A DNA stretch of 64,000 bases, from assembly GCA_016183535.1 (NCBI GenBank), contig JACPEK010000004.1, positions 73,013-137,012 on the forward strand, written 5' to 3'. A program made the position numbers and the translations under genes. The notes under the pieces are model-generated. The model was not told where the DNA came from, made no database searches, and saw nothing but the letters and a program-made list of their open reading frames with translations. This stretch comes from Candidatus Brennerbacteria bacterium. Lineage in GTDB: Bacteria; Patescibacteriota; Minisyncoccia; UBA6257; GWB1-50-10. Each line of letters starts with the position of its first letter. Positions within the stretch are counted from its first letter, which is position 1. Of the stretch, positions 57,331 to 61,100 are shown in pieces.

Positions 57331-57451
57331 TACGTGTTTACCTTACGCACTTTTTCATTTACCATCAACCGAAGCCGCTCGTGTATGGCTTCGCACATAC
57401 GAAGGGCTCATTCAACGATATAATACCTTTGGTATTCTATCGTTTCATTCG

Positions 57452-57523
57452 CCCCCCGTAGCACAATGGATAGTGCAGGGCTCTTCTAAGGCCTTGATGT
57501 GGGTTCGATTCCTACCGGGGGGA
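57452..57523 (+). tRNA. tRNA-Arg (anticodon UCU)
   Basis: Acceptor CCCCCCG/CGGGGGG, D-arm GCAC/GTGC, anticodon loop CUUCUAA, T-loop TTCGATT. No encoded CCA. Confidence 0.8.
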
Positions 57524-58993
57524 CACTTTAGAAAAAGGCAAGCCAGAGGAAGCCGCCTCGCTTCGCTCGGCGGCCATTTCGTATTGAATTTTGGGGGCAA
57601 AAACGAATTGGCGGTTTCGCAAAATATGGTTCGCGCCGATATTTTTCAGAAATGTTGTCATTTTGGGGAAATCATTTTCGGAAAGCAGATTTGCGGCTTG
57701 ATTTAAGGACAAAACGAACTCACGAGCCGGTTCGAGCCACGACAAACCTTTTTGCTCAAAATCGGTAATTTTCTCCTGCAAACGGATTTTTTCGGCCACC
57801 AATTTTTCTTTTTTGGCGGCGTATTCTTGTTGAGTAAGAGCGTTGTCCAAGTATGCATCGAGAAGTTTTTGGAGCTTCACTTCAATTTGGGATAATTGGT
57901 TTTTCAAAACATCAACCTCGGCTTGCGCTTCTAGTTTTGCTTTCTCTTTTTCTGTACCCAACGCCGCCAAAACTTTCTCGGTGTCGTGGCTCGACAAAGA
58001 AACTTTTTGAAGAAATGTTTTGATTTGCGCGGCCAACTCGTTTTCTTGAATGTAGTGCTTTTCTTGGCATACGCCTTTCTTTTTCGTGCATCGGTAATAG
58101 GTATAAATCCCACCGTTTCCTTTTGCGTATTGCGCGGTGATAGAAGCTCCGCATGAAGCGCATTTCATAAGGCCAAGAAAAGCAAAATGATGTTTCTTCA
58201 CTTCCTGCACTCTGCCACGCTTTGCCATAACTTCTTGACACAAATCAAAAAGCTTCTTTGAAATTAACGGCTCGTGCGTTCCCTCAAATATTTCTCCTCG
58301 GTATCGCATAAGTCCGTAGTAAAAAGGGTTTTGTAATAGATGCTGAACATTGCTTACGGAAATTTCCTTGCCAAGATTTCCTTTCAGTCCGCTTTCCTTG
58401 CACCAATTTGCGAGAGAAAAAAATGTGTAGTTTCCGGTGGCGTACATCTCAAAAAGTTTTCTGACTTTAAGTACTTTCTCCGCATCAACATCAATTCCTC
58501 TGGTTTTGGGATTGTTGGAGTAGCCCACCGGAGCCCAACTTGGCCATATTCCATTTCTGATTTTCTGCCGCAAACCTCTTTTTACATTCTCTCGCAAATT
58601 GTCCACATAGTATTTGCTCTGTCCAAAAGCAATGTTCAGCATGAATAATCCTTGCGGTGTTGGCTCGCACCAAAAAGTTGGGAATTTGAGGGAACGAATC
58701 AAGCCGCGGTCAATCATGTGGATTATCTTTCCGCCGTCCACGCTGTTTCGAGCAAGACGATCCGGGTGCCATGAGAGTATTCCATCGGCCTTCCCTTTTT
58801 CCAAAAATGACAACATTTCTGCGAATTTTATTCGCCCAGGTTCTTTGGCAGTTTTCGCCTCTTGAAAAGAGGCGACAATTTCAAGTTTTTCTTTGGCGGC
58901 AAATTCAGAAAGCTCAACAAGTTGAGCTTCAATGCTCAAAACCTGTCTGTCATCATCTTCCGTTGACTTTCGAGCGTAGATTACATAACGCAT
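57512..58993 (-). CDS. large serine recombinase (resolvase/invertase N-domain + recombinase domain + zinc ribbon + coiled coil)
   Basis: N-terminus YVIYARKSTEDDDRQVLSIEAQ (catalytic Ser). CxxC...CxxC zinc ribbon. 493 aa. The last 4 codons are antisense to the tRNA-Arg 3' end. Confidence 0.85.
   Translation of the reverse strand: MRYVIYARKSTEDDDRQVLSIEAQLVELSEFAAKEKLEIVASFQEAKTAKEPGRIKFAEMLSFLEKGKADGILSWHPDRLARNSVDGGKIIHMIDRGLIRSLKFPTFWCEPTPQGLFMLNIAFGQSKYYVDNLRENVKRGLRQKIRNGIWPSWAPVGYSNNPKTRGIDVDAEKVLKVRKLFEMYATGNYTFFSLANWCKESGLKGNLGKEISVSNVQHLLQNPFYYGLMRYRGEIFEGTHEPLISKKLFDLCQEVMAKRGRVQEVKKHHFAFLGLMKCASCGASITAQYAKGNGGIYTYYRCTKKKGVCQEKHYIQENELAAQIKTFLQKVSLSSHDTEKVLAALGTEKEKAKLEAQAEVDVLKNQLSQIEVKLQKLLDAYLDNALTQQEYAAKKEKLVAEKIRLQEKITDFEQKGLSWLEPAREFVLSLNQAANLLSENDFPKMTTFLKNIGANHILRNRQFVFAPKIQYEMAAERSEAASSGLPFSKVSPR
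57521..57619. repeat. IR1 left arm (99 bp); perfect inverted partner at 59038..59136
   Basis: Exact reverse-complement identity. Includes a GGACAC core overlapping the tRNA-Arg 3' end and the recombinase C-terminal codons. Confidence 0.85.
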
Positions 58994-59037
58994 AGTTTTG
59001 TTGAATTGAATTGATTAAAAATTTTTCCGCCCCCAAA

Positions 59038-59136
59038 CGAAACCGCCAATTCGTTTTTGCCCCCAAAATTCAATACGAAATGGCCGCCGAGCGAAGCGAG
59101 GCGGCTTCCTCTGGCTTGCCTTTTTCTAAAGTGTCC
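59038..59136. repeat. IR1 right arm
   Basis: Reverse complement of 57521..57619. Confidence 0.85.
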
Positions 59137-59231
59137 AGTATTCTTGAAATAGTGCGAACCGTTTTCGCCGCCTGCGGCGGCGATGAAAGCTCCCCGCGAA
59201 AAATCCAAAAGGCGGCGGAGCCGCACCGATA
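59137..59231. repeat. IR2 left arm (95 bp); inverted partner at 60112..60206
   Basis: Exact reverse-complement identity. Abuts the IR1 right arm at a GTGTCC core. Confidence 0.85.
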
Positions 59232-59353
59232 TAAGAATTTTTGATGAGAAACTTAACAAGTTTCTTTTCTGTTTTTAATGTTGACTTTTGGAGCCATTTT
59301 TACTAATTTGTTTGTGGAACCCCAACAAACAAATACAGAAAGGAGTGTTCTTT

Positions 59354-59989
59354 ATGACACAGGAAGTATTGGCGACAGAGCTGCTTTCCATGCGAAAGCG
59401 AGCGGAACGAACAGCACAGAGCATCGATCAAATCTCCCACAACCTTTCTGCCGAACGGCAGTCGCTTCGGCAGGTGGTCAAGGAGTACGGCACGAAGCGA
59501 GTCGAACTTCTGAAGCAAGAGCTTCAAGCGCGCGGAGTGACCTGGTGCACCTATTGCTCCGCGGTGATTCCCGAGAGCGATGCCGAACTTCTGCTCGTCG
59601 AGGGCAGAGAGGAATACTCGCACGGCTACGGGAATGCTTGCTACGGTTTCCGTGGCTTCTCGAAGCTTCATCGGGCCTGCCCTACCTGCCGTGAACGTGC
59701 AGCCGACAAGCACGGACAGAAGGGTTCGTACGATTCGCAGGCGAAAGACCAGTCGAGCTTCTACGCATTCCGTGTGGAAAAGCGCGACGACGGCTACTAC
59801 GCCCGCAAGTTCGGCAACTGGGTGAAGCTCGACGACGAGAATTGCAAACTCAACGAACCGTCCAGTCAGCTCGTCGAGAAACTCGCGGAGGGATGGAATC
59901 TCCCGCCGCGAATCGAAGTCGAGTCGAGGTGGCCGAGTTCGGAAGAGAAGCTCATCGTCCACGAGCGAGTACTGGCCGAAGCGAGTTGA
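59354..59989 (+). CDS. hypothetical Cys-rich (zinc-ribbon-like) protein, cargo of IR2 segment
   Basis: CTYC...CYGF...CPTC motifs. Followed by a strong intrinsic terminator (59999-60040). The track ORF starts at TTG 59288. Confidence 0.45.
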   Translation: MTQEVLATELLSMRKRAERTAQSIDQISHNLSAERQSLRQVVKEYGTKRVELLKQELQARGVTWCTYCSAVIPESDAELLLVEGREEYSHGYGNACYGFRGFSKLHRACPTCRERAADKHGQKGSYDSQAKDQSSFYAFRVEKRDDGYYARKFGNWVKLDDENCKLNEPSSQLVEKLAEGWNLPPRIEVESRWPSSEEKLIVHERVLAEAS

Positions 59990-60111
59990 CCATGTGTCCG
60001 CAATCGAGAGGGTGTCCTGCCAAGTGCCGGGCACCCTCATTTCTTTTTGTTTGATTCTTAATTGAATTAAATTCATAATTAAACTGCCACCAAAGAAAAA
60101 CTTGAAATTGC

Positions 60112-60206
60112 TATCGGTGCGGCTCCGCCGCCTTTTGGATTTTTCGCGGGGAGCTTTCATCGCCGCCGCAGGCGGCGAAAACGGTTCGCACTATTTCAAG
60201 AATACT
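60112..60206. repeat. IR2 right arm
   Basis: Reverse complement of 59137..59231. Followed by a GGACAA core. Confidence 0.85.
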
Positions 60207-60314
60207 GGACAAGCGAGGAAATATGCAAAAAGCATATTTTCGAGCGCGGATGCCCGGCCGAAGGTACCGAGGGGACAAGCGAGGAAATAGGCAAAAATCA
60301 TATTTTCGAGCGCG
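60207..60314. repeat. two 42-bp direct repeats, each with an 8-5-8 palindrome (AAATATGC-AAAAA-GCATATTT), upstream of ZIP transporter
   Basis: 60207..60248 and 60273..60314 match at about 39/42. Both begin with GGACAAGCGAGG. Confidence 0.7.
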
Positions 60315-60362: not shown

Positions 60363-61100
60363 ATGTTACTAACGATTCTCGGTGCGAGTTTAATTGGCAG
60401 TGTGGTGGCGCTTGGAGGCGGTGCGCTTCTTTTGTGGCGCGAGGCGTGGGCGAGAAGAATTTCCCTCTACCTCGTGAGTTTCGCGGCGGGCGCGCTTTTG
60501 GGCGCGGCGTTTTTTGACCTCCTCCCCGAGATGGAGGGGCTTCTTTCAAACGGCGCGATCTACGCGAGCGTGGTCGCCGGCATCCTCGTCATGCTGTTCT
60601 TCGAGAAGTTCATGAAATGGTATCACTGCCACGATCAGCAAACGTGTGACTACCATACCTTCTCGAGTTCCATACTTTTCGGCGACGCGGTGCATAATTT
60701 TTTGGACGGCATCGCGATCGCGGCGAGTTTTCTCATAAGCGTTCCTATTGGCGTCGCTACGACCGCGGCGGTATTTTTTCACGAGGTGCCGCAGGAGATA
60801 GGGGATTTTGGCGCCCTTCTCCATGCGGGTTATGGCCGCGCGAGAGTGTGGTGGTTGAATTTTACGACGGCGCTCACAACGCCCGCCGGCGCACTCCTCG
60901 GATATTTTTTTCTCCCGTTTCTCGAGCCACTCCTCGGATATTTTCTTGGCCTCGCGGCGGGCGCTTTTATCTACATTGCGGTCTCGGATTTAATGCCCGA
61001 GATTCGTCACCGTGCCGGGCCGCGCGAGTTCCTCCATTTTTTTATGATTCTTGTCGGCCTCGCCGTGATCATGCTTGTCGGTACGCTCGTGCCGGAATAA
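60363..61100 (+). CDS. zupT: ZIP family metal (zinc) transporter
   Basis: HNFLDGIAIAASF and HEVPQEIGDFGAL motifs; 8 TM. Confidence 0.85.
   Translation: MLLTILGASLIGSVVALGGGALLLWREAWARRISLYLVSFAAGALLGAAFFDLLPEMEGLLSNGAIYASVVAGILVMLFFEKFMKWYHCHDQQTCDYHTFSSSILFGDAVHNFLDGIAIAASFLISVPIGVATTAAVFFHEVPQEIGDFGALLHAGYGRARVWWLNFTTALTTPAGALLGYFFLPFLEPLLGYFLGLAAGAFIYIAVSDLMPEIRHRAGPREFLHFFMILVGLAVIMLVGTLVPE

What the first reader, a model, noticed from the sequence alone, without database searches (positions are those of the whole stretch)
57446..60314. Nested perfect inverted-repeat pairs sharing a GGACA(C) core around a large serine recombinase next to tRNA-Arg: a candidate DNA-inversion / integrative module
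Seen in sequence: a 99-bp segment starts exactly at the 3' end of tRNA-Arg(UCU) (57521-57619) and is repeated as a perfect reverse complement at 59038-59136, flanking the large serine recombinase gene. Directly abutting it, a second 95-bp segment (59137-59231) is perfectly inverted at 60112-60206, flanking a Cys-rich cargo ORF with its own terminator. The junctions carry GGACAC (57521), GTGTCC (59131) and GGACAA (60207), the last followed by two 42-bp direct repeats. The recombinase stop codon is antisense to the tRNA, and its last 4 codons lie left of the first core. An inversion at the cores would fuse the recombinase to a different 33-aa tail (...SKVS-SILEIVRTVFAACGGDESSPRKIQKAAEPHRYKNF, the 59011..59244 frame). 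Established knowledge: serine recombinases act at short crossover cores within imperfect inverted arms, and integrative elements target tRNA 3' ends. Inference: the three-site head-to-head architecture looks like a multi-site invertible switch or a remnant of serial integration/inversion. 100% identity of the arms implies recent or ongoing recombination.
Basis: partly seen in the sequence, partly recalled or inferred. Interest (0 to 1): 0.75.

Follow-up and report, generated by a model that had tools for sequence, protein, structure and literature searches.

The report
tRNA-targeting serine-recombinase mini-element with spare attP
The nested perfect inverted repeats are the fixed architecture of a 2.7-kb mobile element, widespread in ultra-small (Patescibacteria) bacteria, that inserts at the 3' end of tRNA genes, carries one ever-changing cargo gene, and keeps an inverted spare copy of its own attachment site and of the end of its recombinase gene.

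Summary
There are two 100%-identical inverted-repeat pairs (57521-57619/59038-59136 and 59132-59231/60112-60211). They share a 5-nt core, GGACA, at the 3' end of tRNA-Arg(UCU).

It is not a one-off or an assembly artefact. The order b–cargo–b'–core–a–recombinase–a'–core–tRNA recurs in more than 110 related loci from many Patescibacteria. These sit at 28 different tRNA/anticodon targets.

The three junctions are attL (tRNA|core|a), attR (b'|core|c) and an internal, inverted, intact attP (b'|core|a). A GTTCR motif lies 23 nt from the core in b' and 18 nt in the tRNA. This is the 5-bp attP/attB shift typical of large serine integrases.

The recombinase ORF spans attP. The b arm encodes a conserved C-terminal tail with a codon-periodic substitution pattern, and integration cuts that tail off. 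Cargo genes are almost all unrelated between loci.

Nearly all loci have the orientation seen here. Rare contigs show the recombinase segment flipped and fused to the b tail, and deletion derivatives imply past inversions.

Best reading: a tRNA-targeting integrative element parked with a truncated recombinase. The internal attP holds the spare 3' exon. Its function is inferred, not shown. I rate it a new variant of a known kind.

The parts
57452..57524 (+). tRNA-Arg(UCU), the integration target. Its T-arm and acceptor 3' strand form the B half-site of attB/attL.
   Evidence: ARAGORN. GTTCR motif 18 nt from the core in tRNA arms across the family.
57521..57525 (+). Core O (GGACA) of attL: last two acceptor-stem bases, the discriminator, and CA.
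   Evidence: Shared by all three sites. The core co-varies with the target tRNA across loci.
57526..57619 (+). Arm a, the P' half-site of attL. On the minus strand it encodes about the last 31 recombinase codons before the core (RNRQFVF...SK); V and S come from the core.
   Evidence: Inverted repeat I2; nhmmer arm model; translation.
57512..58993 (-). Large serine recombinase gene, 493 aa, the integration-truncated form.
   Evidence: Pfam PF00239, PF07508, PF13408; phrog_95 integrase, 5e-83; 7929 homologues, top hits 74-91% identical, named Patescibacteria.
57621..57647 (-). z: 27 nt of recombinase coding sequence just before a'. In most relatives a second copy lies upstream of the cargo gene.
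58857..58873 (-). h: 7-bp-stem hairpin inside the recombinase gene (GCCTCTT-TTC-AAGAGGC), kept by compensatory synonymous changes.
58874..58906 (-). s: recombinase nt ~88-120. Its sequence is repeated at the far end of the cargo unit.
   Evidence: (I3).
58994..59037 (-). u: 44-nt 5' leader of the recombinase, between arm a' and the ATG.
59038..59231 (+). Internal, inverted, intact attP: a' (59038-59131), core TGTCC (59132-59136), b (59137-59231). Read on the + strand it is the complete 3' exon of the full-length recombinase.
59011..59244 (+). Open frame across the internal attP (77 aa). It holds the spare C-terminal exon ...SKVS|SILEIVRTVFAACGG...
   Evidence: The frame is open through at least 55 codons in 36 related loci, with the codon-position entropy pattern of coding DNA.
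59232..60111 (+). Cargo unit Y, the hypervariable slot.
   Evidence: No homology between relatives inside Y, while the backbone is 88-90% identical. Cargo ORFs are unrelated in 48 loci.
59354..59989 (+). Cargo ORF, 211 aa, with CxxC motifs. No family assignment.
60085..60110 (+). Copy of s (recombinase nt 93-118, sense orientation) abutting the outer end of b'.
   Evidence: (I3).
60112..60206 (+). Arm b', the P half-site of attR. It carries the GTTCG motif 23 nt from the core.
60207..60211 (+). Core O (GGACA) of attR.
60212..60314 (+). Host side c (B' arm). It contains a 66-bp tandem duplication: a 42-nt repeat, a 24-nt tRNA-3'-end-like relic, then GGACA and the second repeat.

Best explanation
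Window 57521-60211 is one integrated copy (~2.69 kb) of a compact site-specific integrative element. The family is spread through Patescibacteria.

Its large serine recombinase recombines an element site attP (b'|core|a) with the 3' end of a tRNA gene, attB (tRNA|core|c). The core comprises the last acceptor-stem bases, the discriminator and C74; here it is GGACA in tRNA-Arg-UCU. This gives attL (57452-57619) and attR (60112-60248).

The two 'nested' perfect inverted repeats exist because the element carries a second, inverted, intact attP (59038-59231). It lies between the divergently oriented recombinase gene and a single-gene cargo slot.

The recombinase ORF runs across attP. Arm a' encodes its last common codons, and arm b encodes a conserved C-terminal extension. 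Integration through the attP at the gene's 3' end therefore replaces that tail with two codons of antisense tRNA.

Inferred: this truncated, divergent arrangement is the stable 'parked' state. The internal attP keeps a spare copy of the site and of the 3' exon. Inversion of the recombinase segment, catalysed by the recombinase or by RecA on the 100-bp arms, would re-fuse the gene to its tail. That would provide a full-length enzyme for excision or further moves without a separate directionality factor.

Shown: the site logic, the family-wide constancy, the tRNA targeting, the coding nature of the tail, the cargo turnover, and rare flipped or deleted derivatives.

Inferred: any enzymatic activity, who catalyses inversion, and what the tail does.
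For: 1. Three-site logic holds in every locus with both repeats. The core is 4-8 nt and co-varies with the tRNA discriminator end.
2. The order b-Y-b'-a-REC-a'-tRNA(-) recurs. b'-core-a lies upstream of the gene in 112 loci and a tRNA(-) abuts the gene's 3' end in 110, with 28 tRNA/anticodon targets.
3. The GTTCR motif is 23 nt from the core in b' (26/32 loci) and 18 nt in the tRNA arm (28/35). This is the 5-bp zinc-ribbon-motif shift between attP and attB described for serine integrases (PMC3783163).
4. Occupied versus empty site: L139 has tRNA-Arg(tct)...GGGGACA, 12 nt, then tRNA-Val. L086/L088/L033 (recombinase 90% identical to the window's) have the element exactly there, with GACA on both sides.
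5. The frame a'->core->b stays open for at least 55 codons in 36 loci. The conserved peptide is SIL(E/K)(L/I)VRT(H)FAA.GG. Codon position 2 is invariant and position 3 variable.
6. The minimal relative L039 has only the recombinase and one attP. The enzyme plus attP is therefore the autonomous core.
7. Flipped forms exist. L084 (k127 contig) has a full-length 525-aa recombinase with the b tail, then k-z-u-cargo-s-b'-core-c. L082 and L083 are similar. L094 and L045 have tRNA(+)-core-a-u-rec.
8. Deletion derivatives (L039; L090/L095) are what direct-repeat deletion would produce from relatively inverted isomers.
9. The backbone GC is constant (0.40 +/- 0.025) in hosts of 0.33-0.56 GC. Cargo is unrelated between loci and has variable GC.
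Against: - No reads were available, so neither excision nor inversion is shown for this window.
- All MAG loci and nearly all metagenome loci have one orientation. That fits 'parked', but it equally fits an internal site that is never used.
- Classical large serine integrases do not recombine attL with attP, so recombinase-catalysed inversion would break the known pairing rules (PMC3783163).
- Short flipped contigs could in principle be graph mis-joins through the 100-bp repeats. This is less likely for the k127/k141 contigs.
- The AlphaFold model gives the tail pLDDT < 50, so no structural role can be claimed.
- The codon-periodic signal covers only ~12-16 residues, and these overlap the DNA half-site.
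- The model does not explain why integration through the other, identical attP (which would keep the recombinase full length) is essentially never seen, unless such copies re-excise.
- It also does not explain the origin of the permuted 'ghost' flanking the cargo.
Confidence: 0.55

Rival explanations
1. Same integrative element, but the internal inverted attP has no switching role. It is a structural by-product of how the family arose: an inverted partial duplication of the recombinase unit into which cargo was later placed. RecA-type gene conversion keeps it identical to the outer arms. The element moves only by attL x attR excision and attP x attB integration. Flipped and deleted variants are accidental homologous-recombination products.
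For: - The cargo unit is a circularly permuted 'ghost' of the recombinase unit (b-k-z-u-cargo-s-b'), which points to a duplication history.
- Orientation is almost invariant.
- Some loci have lost the core of the internal site yet keep everything else (L023, L032).
- The minimal L039 manages without it.
- Serine integrases normally ignore attP x attL pairs (PMC3783163).
Against: - The internal site is retained, with arms at least 98% identical in 28 of 43 (a) and 20 of 43 (b) loci, across recombinases only 60-91% identical. A useless 200-bp repeat that promotes rearrangement should often be lost.
- Mismatches between arm copies are fewest in the 50 nt next to the core. This measurement is partly confounded by variable arm length.
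Confidence: 0.28
2. The two inverted attP sites serve the circular form, as in the yeast 2-micron plasmid or engineered cassette exchange. The excised circle has two ~200-bp inverted repeats separating a recombinase module from a cargo module. It can flip. With two attB sites (pairs of tRNA genes) it can exchange a single module into the chromosome, which would shuffle cargo and spread recombinase modules.
For: - The inferred circle has exactly this geometry.
- L045 has the recombinase module alone between two convergent tRNA-Ala genes, each fused to an a arm.
- Arrays of X-attP-Y-attP-X type exist (L081, L092, L137, L157).
- L006 and L135 carry two cargo units.
- Homologous cargo occurs at different tRNAs (L006/L026, L033/L043).
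Against: - No circular contig was found. L081 is not a clean wrap-around: its two recombinase copies are 93% identical and one carries deletions.
- No replication function is evident in a 2.7-kb element whose second gene differs in every copy.
- Random use of two identical attPs predicts two integrated isomers in equal numbers, which is not seen.
Confidence: 0.12
3. A programmed phase-variation (DNA-inversion) switch of the Hin/Gin or shufflon kind. It would turn the cargo gene or recombinase isoforms on and off within a population.
For: - The recombinase lies inside an inverted-repeat-flanked segment, as hin does.
- An alternative C-terminal exon is available.
- Rare flipped relatives exist.
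Against: - The enzyme is a large serine integrase type, not a small invertase with a C-terminal HTH.
- Cargo genes are ordinary and unrelated: transporters, methyltransferases, DHODH and others.
- The window's cargo has a promoter-like TTGACT/TAATTT pair inside the segment (read by eye), so flipping should not switch it.
- Orientation is fixed in about 95% or more of the scored loci.
- The sites are attL/attP/attR of an insertion with an empty-site counterpart.
Confidence: 0.04
4. Assembly artefact: a chimeric or fold-back join in a metagenome-assembled genome.
For: The source is a MAG. Many contigs break at this element.
Against: The identical architecture appears in more than 110 loci from SPAdes, MEGAHIT, IDBA and other assemblies of many samples and lineages. 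The arm sequences are locus-specific and the cores match the tRNA.
Confidence: 0.01

Closest known systems
Phage-type large serine integrases (A118/LI, phiC31, Bxb1, SPbeta SprA/YokA) with attP x attB -> attL/attR
   Same: - Domain set: Resolvase, Recombinase, Zn ribbon, and a long coiled coil.
- A short shared core.
- Hybrid attL/attR sites.
- A recognition motif 5 bp closer to the centre in attB than in attP.
   Different: - Only ~25-29% identical to phage and plasmid enzymes, and far below the NCBIfam cut-offs for XisF/Ccr.
- The target is the 3' end of essentially any tRNA gene rather than one protein-coding gene. The core tracks tRNA positions 71-74.
- No directionality-factor gene is evident.
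- The ORF spans attP.
- A second, inverted attP sits inside the element.
- The element is only 2.7 kb and carries one cargo gene.
SSV-type 'suicidal' tyrosine integrases of archaeal viruses and plasmids (att site inside the integrase gene)
   Same: The recombination site lies inside the recombinase's own gene, so integration breaks the gene. The review argues that the intact gene then acts as the directionality factor (PMC8371274).
   Different: - Tyrosine chemistry, and archaeal hosts.
- There the gene is split into two large halves. Here only the last ~32 codons are lost.
- Here an inverted spare copy of the site plus the lost exon is carried inside the element, which SSV-type elements do not have.
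Hin/hix invertible segment of Salmonella (recombinase gene inside the segment it inverts)
   Same: A serine recombinase gene is bracketed by inverted repeats that contain its crossover sites (from general knowledge).
   Different: - Hin is a small invertase that needs an enhancer and Fis.
- Its sites are 26 bp, and both orientations coexist.
- Here the arms are 100 bp, the sites are att-type, one orientation dominates, and the unit is an insertion at a tRNA.
Yeast 2-micron plasmid (FLP and two inverted repeats with FRT)
   Same: The inferred circular form would have two long inverted repeats, each holding the recombinase target. They would separate two unique regions, one of which encodes the recombinase (from general knowledge).
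   Different: - FLP is a tyrosine recombinase.
- 2-micron is a replicating plasmid that uses flipping for copy-number amplification.
- Here no replication function is visible, and the observed form is integrated.
Small tRNA-linked cargo islands such as tycheposons of Prochlorococcus, and integron cassettes
   Same: A conserved recombinase backbone sits next to a highly variable, usually single-gene cargo at tRNA genes. The tycheposon preprint appeared in the search results; the comparison rests on general knowledge.
   Different: - Those use tyrosine recombinases, direct-repeat att sites or folded attC sites.
- Here the cargo is bounded by inverted copies of an attP half-site.
- Here the cargo is driven, in most relatives, by a duplicate of the recombinase's own leader.

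Membership tests
Large serine recombinase / serine integrase | N-terminal resolvase-type catalytic domain with the serine nucleophile | tested here: met
   PF00239, 6e-22, residues 4-149. The motif YARKST gives Ser10.
Large serine recombinase / serine integrase | C-terminal recombinase domain, zinc ribbon domain and inserted coiled coil | tested here: met
   PF07508 (6.5e-18) and PF13408 (5.6e-9). Long helices 331-378 and 384-410 in the model of the homologue P0051, with pLDDT 76-93 in that region. PDB hits to SPbeta YokA and the A118 integrase.
Large serine recombinase / serine integrase | attP and attB differ by a 5-bp shift of the zinc-ribbon recognition motif towards the centre in attB | tested here: met
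   GTTCR lies 23 nt from the core in b' and 18 nt in the tRNA arm. The rule is taken from PMC3783163. Only the left half-sites could be tested; the right host arm c is not conserved.
Large serine recombinase / serine integrase | Crossover at a central dinucleotide shared by attP and attB | tested here: inconclusive
   The shared core is 4-8 nt (as short as 1-2 nt in L028, L047 and L062). The exact dinucleotide cannot be placed from sequence.
Large serine recombinase / serine integrase | Unidirectional integration, with excision needing a directionality factor | not testable with these tools
   No second conserved gene exists in the element, because the cargo differs in every locus.
Site-specific integrative element (insertion with an empty-site counterpart) | The same chromosomal junction is found occupied and empty, with the core retained | tested here: met
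   L139 is empty; L086/L088/L033 are occupied at tRNA-Arg(tct)/tRNA-Val(tac). This is a cross-species comparison in relatives (78% identity), not in the window's own species.
Small serine DNA invertase switch (Hin/Gin/Cin/Pin) | ~190-aa recombinase with a C-terminal helix-turn-helix, short hix-type sites and an enhancer | tested here: not met
   The protein is 493 aa with the large-serine-recombinase domain set. The phrog DNA-invertase hit covers only the shared N-terminal part.
Small serine DNA invertase switch (Hin/Gin/Cin/Pin) | Both orientations present at appreciable frequency | tested here: not met
   Across related loci, 110 have the tRNA-proximal 3' end and 5 have rec-a'-core-b; 112 have b'-core-a upstream and 2 have tRNA(+)-core-a. 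Within-population frequency cannot be tested without reads.
Tyrosine-integrase tRNA island | A tyrosine recombinase, and a direct repeat of the tRNA 3' part at both ends | tested here: not met
   No tyrosine recombinase was found. Only the 4-8-nt core is repeated directly.
2-micron-like flip plasmid | An autonomous circular replicon with two inverted recombinase targets | tested here: inconclusive
   The geometry is met by inference. No circular contig or replication gene was found.
SSV-type 'suicidal' integrase module | The att site lies inside the recombinase ORF, so integration disrupts the gene | tested here: met
   The ORF reads through a', the core and b, with a coding substitution pattern. 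The integrated copy ends in antisense tRNA. The membership itself fails: this is a serine, not a tyrosine, enzyme.

The most novel reading that the evidence does not exclude
A previously undescribed class of bacterial mini-element in which the recombinase gene, its attachment site and its directionality control form one self-contained DNA device. Integration at a tRNA 3' end clips off the enzyme's C-terminal tail and parks the element. An inverted spare attP carrying the missing exon lets a single inversion rebuild the full-length enzyme, giving reversibility without a directionality factor. The adjacent slot, bounded by attP half-sites and driven by a copy of the recombinase leader, would act as a gene-capture and exchange platform. 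That platform would move single genes among Patescibacteria at nearly any tRNA gene.
Probability: 0.3. Interest if true: 0.85.

Novelty: new variant of a known kind. Interest (0 to 1): 0.7.

Why it matters
If this reading holds, four things follow.

1. Patescibacteria have tiny genomes and few recognised mobile elements. They would turn out to host a very successful, highly conserved family of 2-3-kb elements that ferry single genes between distant lineages. That would give a concrete vehicle for their horizontal gene transfer.

2. The family offers natural serine integrases whose target is the universal T-arm/acceptor geometry of tRNA genes, with a core that tracks the discriminator end. This is a ready-made series of related enzymes with many different natural targets, of interest for integrase engineering.

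3. An att site inside the recombinase ORF, plus an inverted spare exon, would be a new solution to the directionality problem of serine integrases. It would be a bacterial counterpart of archaeal 'suicidal' integrases.

4. Practically, the 100-bp inverted repeats explain why many MAG contigs break at this gene.

Tried and rejected
1. Exact-protein look-ups of the window's recombinase and cargo found nothing on record.

2. Four literature searches on serine recombinase / Patescibacteria / tRNA / attP terms found no description of this element.

3. Cargo as a defence gene or conserved accessory gene: rejected. The cargo ORFs share no family. Pfam and PADLOC hits are scattered ordinary genes, and the window's cargo has no hit in Pfam, PHROGs, PADLOC or NCBIfam.

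4. Cargo as host DNA next to the tRNA: rejected. Cargo GC correlates only weakly with host GC (r = 0.33). The same cargo occurs at different tRNAs. The empty site has no cargo.

5. A search with a chimeric C-terminal query aimed to find full-length tailed enzymes. The tool returned only short proteins. Seven were gene fragments running from the recombinase body into the b tail. Only one of the 120 full-length homologues had the tail.

6. L081 as an excised circle: not clean. Its two recombinase copies are 93% identical and one carries deletions.

7. AlphaFold on the tailed homologue gave a low-confidence tail, so no fold search was run.

8. The positional test of arm mismatches showed a gradient towards the outer ends, but it is confounded by arm-length variation.

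9. The promoter/terminator consensus scan was uninformative. It found 4 promoter-like sites against 2.6 expected.

10. I tried to derive the layout from simple serine-recombinase reactions: two circles with palindromic sites, insertion at hairpin h, and inversion with a secondary attB. None reproduces the outer-end junctions a|u and s|b'. The origin remains unresolved.

Full report
**1. Observation**

- Arms 57521-57619 and 59038-59136 are 99 nt and 100% complementary.
- Arms 59132-59231 and 60112-60211 are 100 nt and 100% complementary.
- The two pairs overlap in 5 nt, so GGACA (or its complement TGTCC) stands at 57521, 59132 and 60207.
- tRNA-Arg(tct) is at 57452-57524.
- The minus-strand ORF 57512..58993 is a 493-aa large serine recombinase with Resolvase, Recombinase and Zn_ribbon_recom domains. 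It matches phrog_95 'integrase' at 5e-83.
- A 211-aa ORF with CxxC motifs (59354-59989) lies between the second pair. It matches no family.
- Minor corrections: the first arm starts 4 nt inside the tRNA call, and only two sense codons and the stop lie beyond the core.

**2. Parsing the sites**

Written in one orientation, the three junctions are:
- tRNA|GGACA|a
- b'|GGACA|a (the middle site, inverted)
- b'|GGACA|c

These are attL, an intact attP and attR.

**3. The layout is the rule in a large family**

The recombinase has thousands of homologues. The top 120 are 74-91% identical, and those with names are Patescibacteria. The window's own protein is annotated from a Candidatus Brennerbacteria MAG.

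I fetched 79 genome loci and 80 metagenome loci, then ran self-BLAST, arm profile searches and tRNA scans on them. The order is the same nearly everywhere: b, cargo, b', core, a, leader, recombinase, a', core, tRNA on the opposite strand.

Pooled counts (not deduplicated):
- b'-core-a lies upstream of the gene in 112 loci.
- A tRNA abuts the gene's 3' end in 110 loci.
- There are 28 different tRNA/anticodon targets.

In each locus the three junctions share a 4-8-nt core. The core corresponds to the last acceptor-stem bases, the discriminator and C74(CA). It changes with the tRNA: GCAC(CA), CCAC(CA), GAGC(CA), CAGC, CTGC(CA), and GGACA here.

Arms are at least 98% identical within a locus in 28 of 43 (a) and 20 of 43 (b) cases, yet they are strongly diverged between loci. 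An assembly artefact and a local accident are both excluded.

**4. attP/attB assignment**

A GTTCR motif lies 23 nt from the core in b' (26 of 32 loci). The T-loop GTTCR of the tRNA lies 18 nt from the core (28 of 35). A 5-bp shift of the zinc-ribbon motif towards the centre in attB relative to attP is the published hallmark of serine integrase sites (PMC3783163).

An empty counterpart exists in relatives. L139 has tRNA-Arg(tct) ending ...GGGGACA, then 12 nt, then tRNA-Val. L086/L088/L033 have a recombinase 90% identical to the window's. They carry the element exactly between those two tRNAs, with GACA on both sides.

**5. The recombinase ORF spans attP**

Reading a', core, b in the recombinase frame stays open for at least 55 codons in 36 loci. 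It gives a conserved tail...FPxWC SIL(E/K)(L/I)VRT(H)FAA.GG..., often ending near the outer edge of b.

In ILEIVRT the second codon positions are invariant, and the third positions carry 1.0-1.4 bits of entropy. This is a coding signature, not a DNA-site signature.

Database homologues mostly end in antisense-tRNA translations of arbitrary length. Integration therefore removes the natural tail.

The closest published concept is the archaeal SSV-type 'suicidal' tyrosine integrase, whose att site lies inside its own gene (PMC8371274).

**6. The cargo slot**

Between elements whose backbones are 88-90% identical, homology stops at the inner edge of b' on one side and just after a ~30-nt block s on the other.

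Across 48 loci:
- The cargo ORFs are essentially all unrelated. Only two homologous pairs were found, and each pair sits at different tRNAs.
- The cargo lies on the strand opposite to the recombinase in at least 44.
- The genes are ordinary: methyltransferases, a Na/Ca exchanger, a subtilase, DHODH, a symporter, a radical SAM enzyme.

Backbone GC is 0.40 +/- 0.025 in hosts of 0.33-0.56 GC. Cargo GC ranges from 0.28 to 0.55 and tracks the host only weakly.

In most relatives the cargo ATG sits behind a copy of three recombinase pieces: k (recombinase nt ~140-161), z (the 27 nt before a') and u (the recombinase leader). The unit ends with s (recombinase nt ~93-125), directly abutting b'.

The cargo unit is therefore a circularly permuted 'ghost' of the recombinase unit. 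The window keeps only s (60085-60110). It has a promoter-like TTGACT/TAATTT pair upstream of the cargo ORF (read by eye).

**7. Variants**

| Variant | Loci |
|---|---|
| Minimal form: recombinase plus one attP | L039 |
| Internal site core deleted | L023, L032 |
| Recombinase module between two convergent tRNA-Ala genes | L045 |
| tRNA(+)-core-a-u-rec, i.e. the flipped module | L094 |
| Recombinase fused to the b tail and co-oriented with cargo; L084 encodes a complete 525-aa tailed enzyme on a k127 contig | L082-L084 |
| N-terminally truncated recombinase fused behind cargo at s, the product expected from s-s deletion in an inverted isomer | L090, L095 |
| Arrays of X-attP-Y-attP-X type | L081, L092, L137, L157 |

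Relative inversions have therefore happened, but they are rare. Only 1 of the 120 full-length homologues carries the b tail.

**8. Interpretation**

The firm part (about 0.9) is that this is an integrated, tRNA-targeting large-serine-recombinase element with attL, attR and an internal inverted attP.

The role of the internal site is inferred. My preferred reading (about 0.35 on its own) is that the observed isomer is the parked state with a clipped enzyme, and that the internal attP stores the missing exon for re-fusion by inversion.

This reading would explain several things:
- The orientation with a truncated gene and no direct repeats predominates.
- The arms stay identical.
- Flipped copies are rare and deletion-prone.

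The rivals are an inert duplication kept by gene conversion, a 2-micron- or cassette-exchange-like function of the two-attP circle, and a phase-variation switch.

**9. Known or new**

The enzyme class and the attP/attB logic are known. I found no description of:
- the pan-tRNA 3'-end targeting,
- the ORF-spanning attP,
- the internal inverted attP,
- the ghost-flanked single-gene cargo slot.

No close relative exists in annotated phages or plasmids; the best identities are below 30%. NCBIfam places the protein far below the XisF/Ccr cut-offs. I rate it a new variant of a known kind.

**10. Limits**

- No reads were available, so there is no within-population orientation or excision data for this window.
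- The empty site comes from relatives, not from the same species.
- The pooled locus counts include some duplicate contigs between collections.
- The tail's function and the evolutionary origin of the layout are unresolved.

Noticed in passing
window 60207-60314: The host side of attR is a 66-bp tandem duplication. It reads GGACA plus a 37-nt c1, then a 24-nt piece resembling the tRNA-Arg 3' end (GATGCCCGGCCGAAGGTACCGAGG), then GGACA plus c2 (95% identical to c1). It looks like a relic second attB or a decayed duplicate tRNA.
   Followed up: partly
window 58857-58873 (recombinase nt 121-137): A 7-bp-stem hairpin inside the recombinase coding region is preserved across the family by compensatory, mostly synonymous changes: GCTTCCT..AGGAAGC, GCCTCTT..AAGAGGC and GCCTCGC..GCGAGGC. 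It sits exactly where the cargo-unit 'ghost' is opened. Its function is unknown.
   Followed up: partly
window 57647-57671 and 58797-58821: A 25-nt inverted repeat lies within the recombinase gene (nt ~172-197 against ~1323-1347, next to z). It is conserved in relatives and co-varies in L098. It may be a long-range RNA or DNA pairing.
   Followed up: partly
window 60045-60110: Just before b' there is a leader-like stretch with a promoter-like TTGATT-17-CATAAT (60051-60079), followed by the sense copy of recombinase nt 93-118. It points outward, towards the ZIP transporter gene (60363-61100).
   Followed up: no
L039, L001, L006, L018, L108, L122 (downstream of a'): In about a fifth of loci the element abuts an isolated tRNA 3'-half-like fragment, with an intact tRNA 40-100 nt further on. 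In another group (L098, L099, L103, L104, L106, L117, L142, L157) it abuts a non-tRNA sequence that carries a GGTTC motif at attP-like spacing.
   Followed up: partly
L080 (contig of P0060): This is a rearranged copy. The cargo, with the outer parts of its b arms, sits inside the a' arm between the recombinase and tRNA-Leu. Upstream, the inner b and b' parts are fused into a palindrome, as if the cargo stem-loop had been cut out and moved.
   Followed up: partly
L005, L007, L030, L038, L047, L067, L074, L076 (record titles): Contigs carrying this Patescibacteria-type element are filed in MAGs labelled Gammaproteobacteria, Spirochaetia, Latescibacterota or Woesearchaeota. This is probably binning contamination.
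   Followed up: no
many loci: Contigs very often start or end at the a or b arms or inside the recombinase gene. The 100-bp inverted repeats are a recurrent assembly breakpoint in Patescibacteria MAGs.
   Followed up: no
window 59212-59228 and 60115-60131: The outer end of each b arm contains a GC-rich hairpin followed by CTTTTGG, which is terminator-like. It would end cargo transcripts entering b' and insulate the recombinase leader on the other copy.
   Followed up: no
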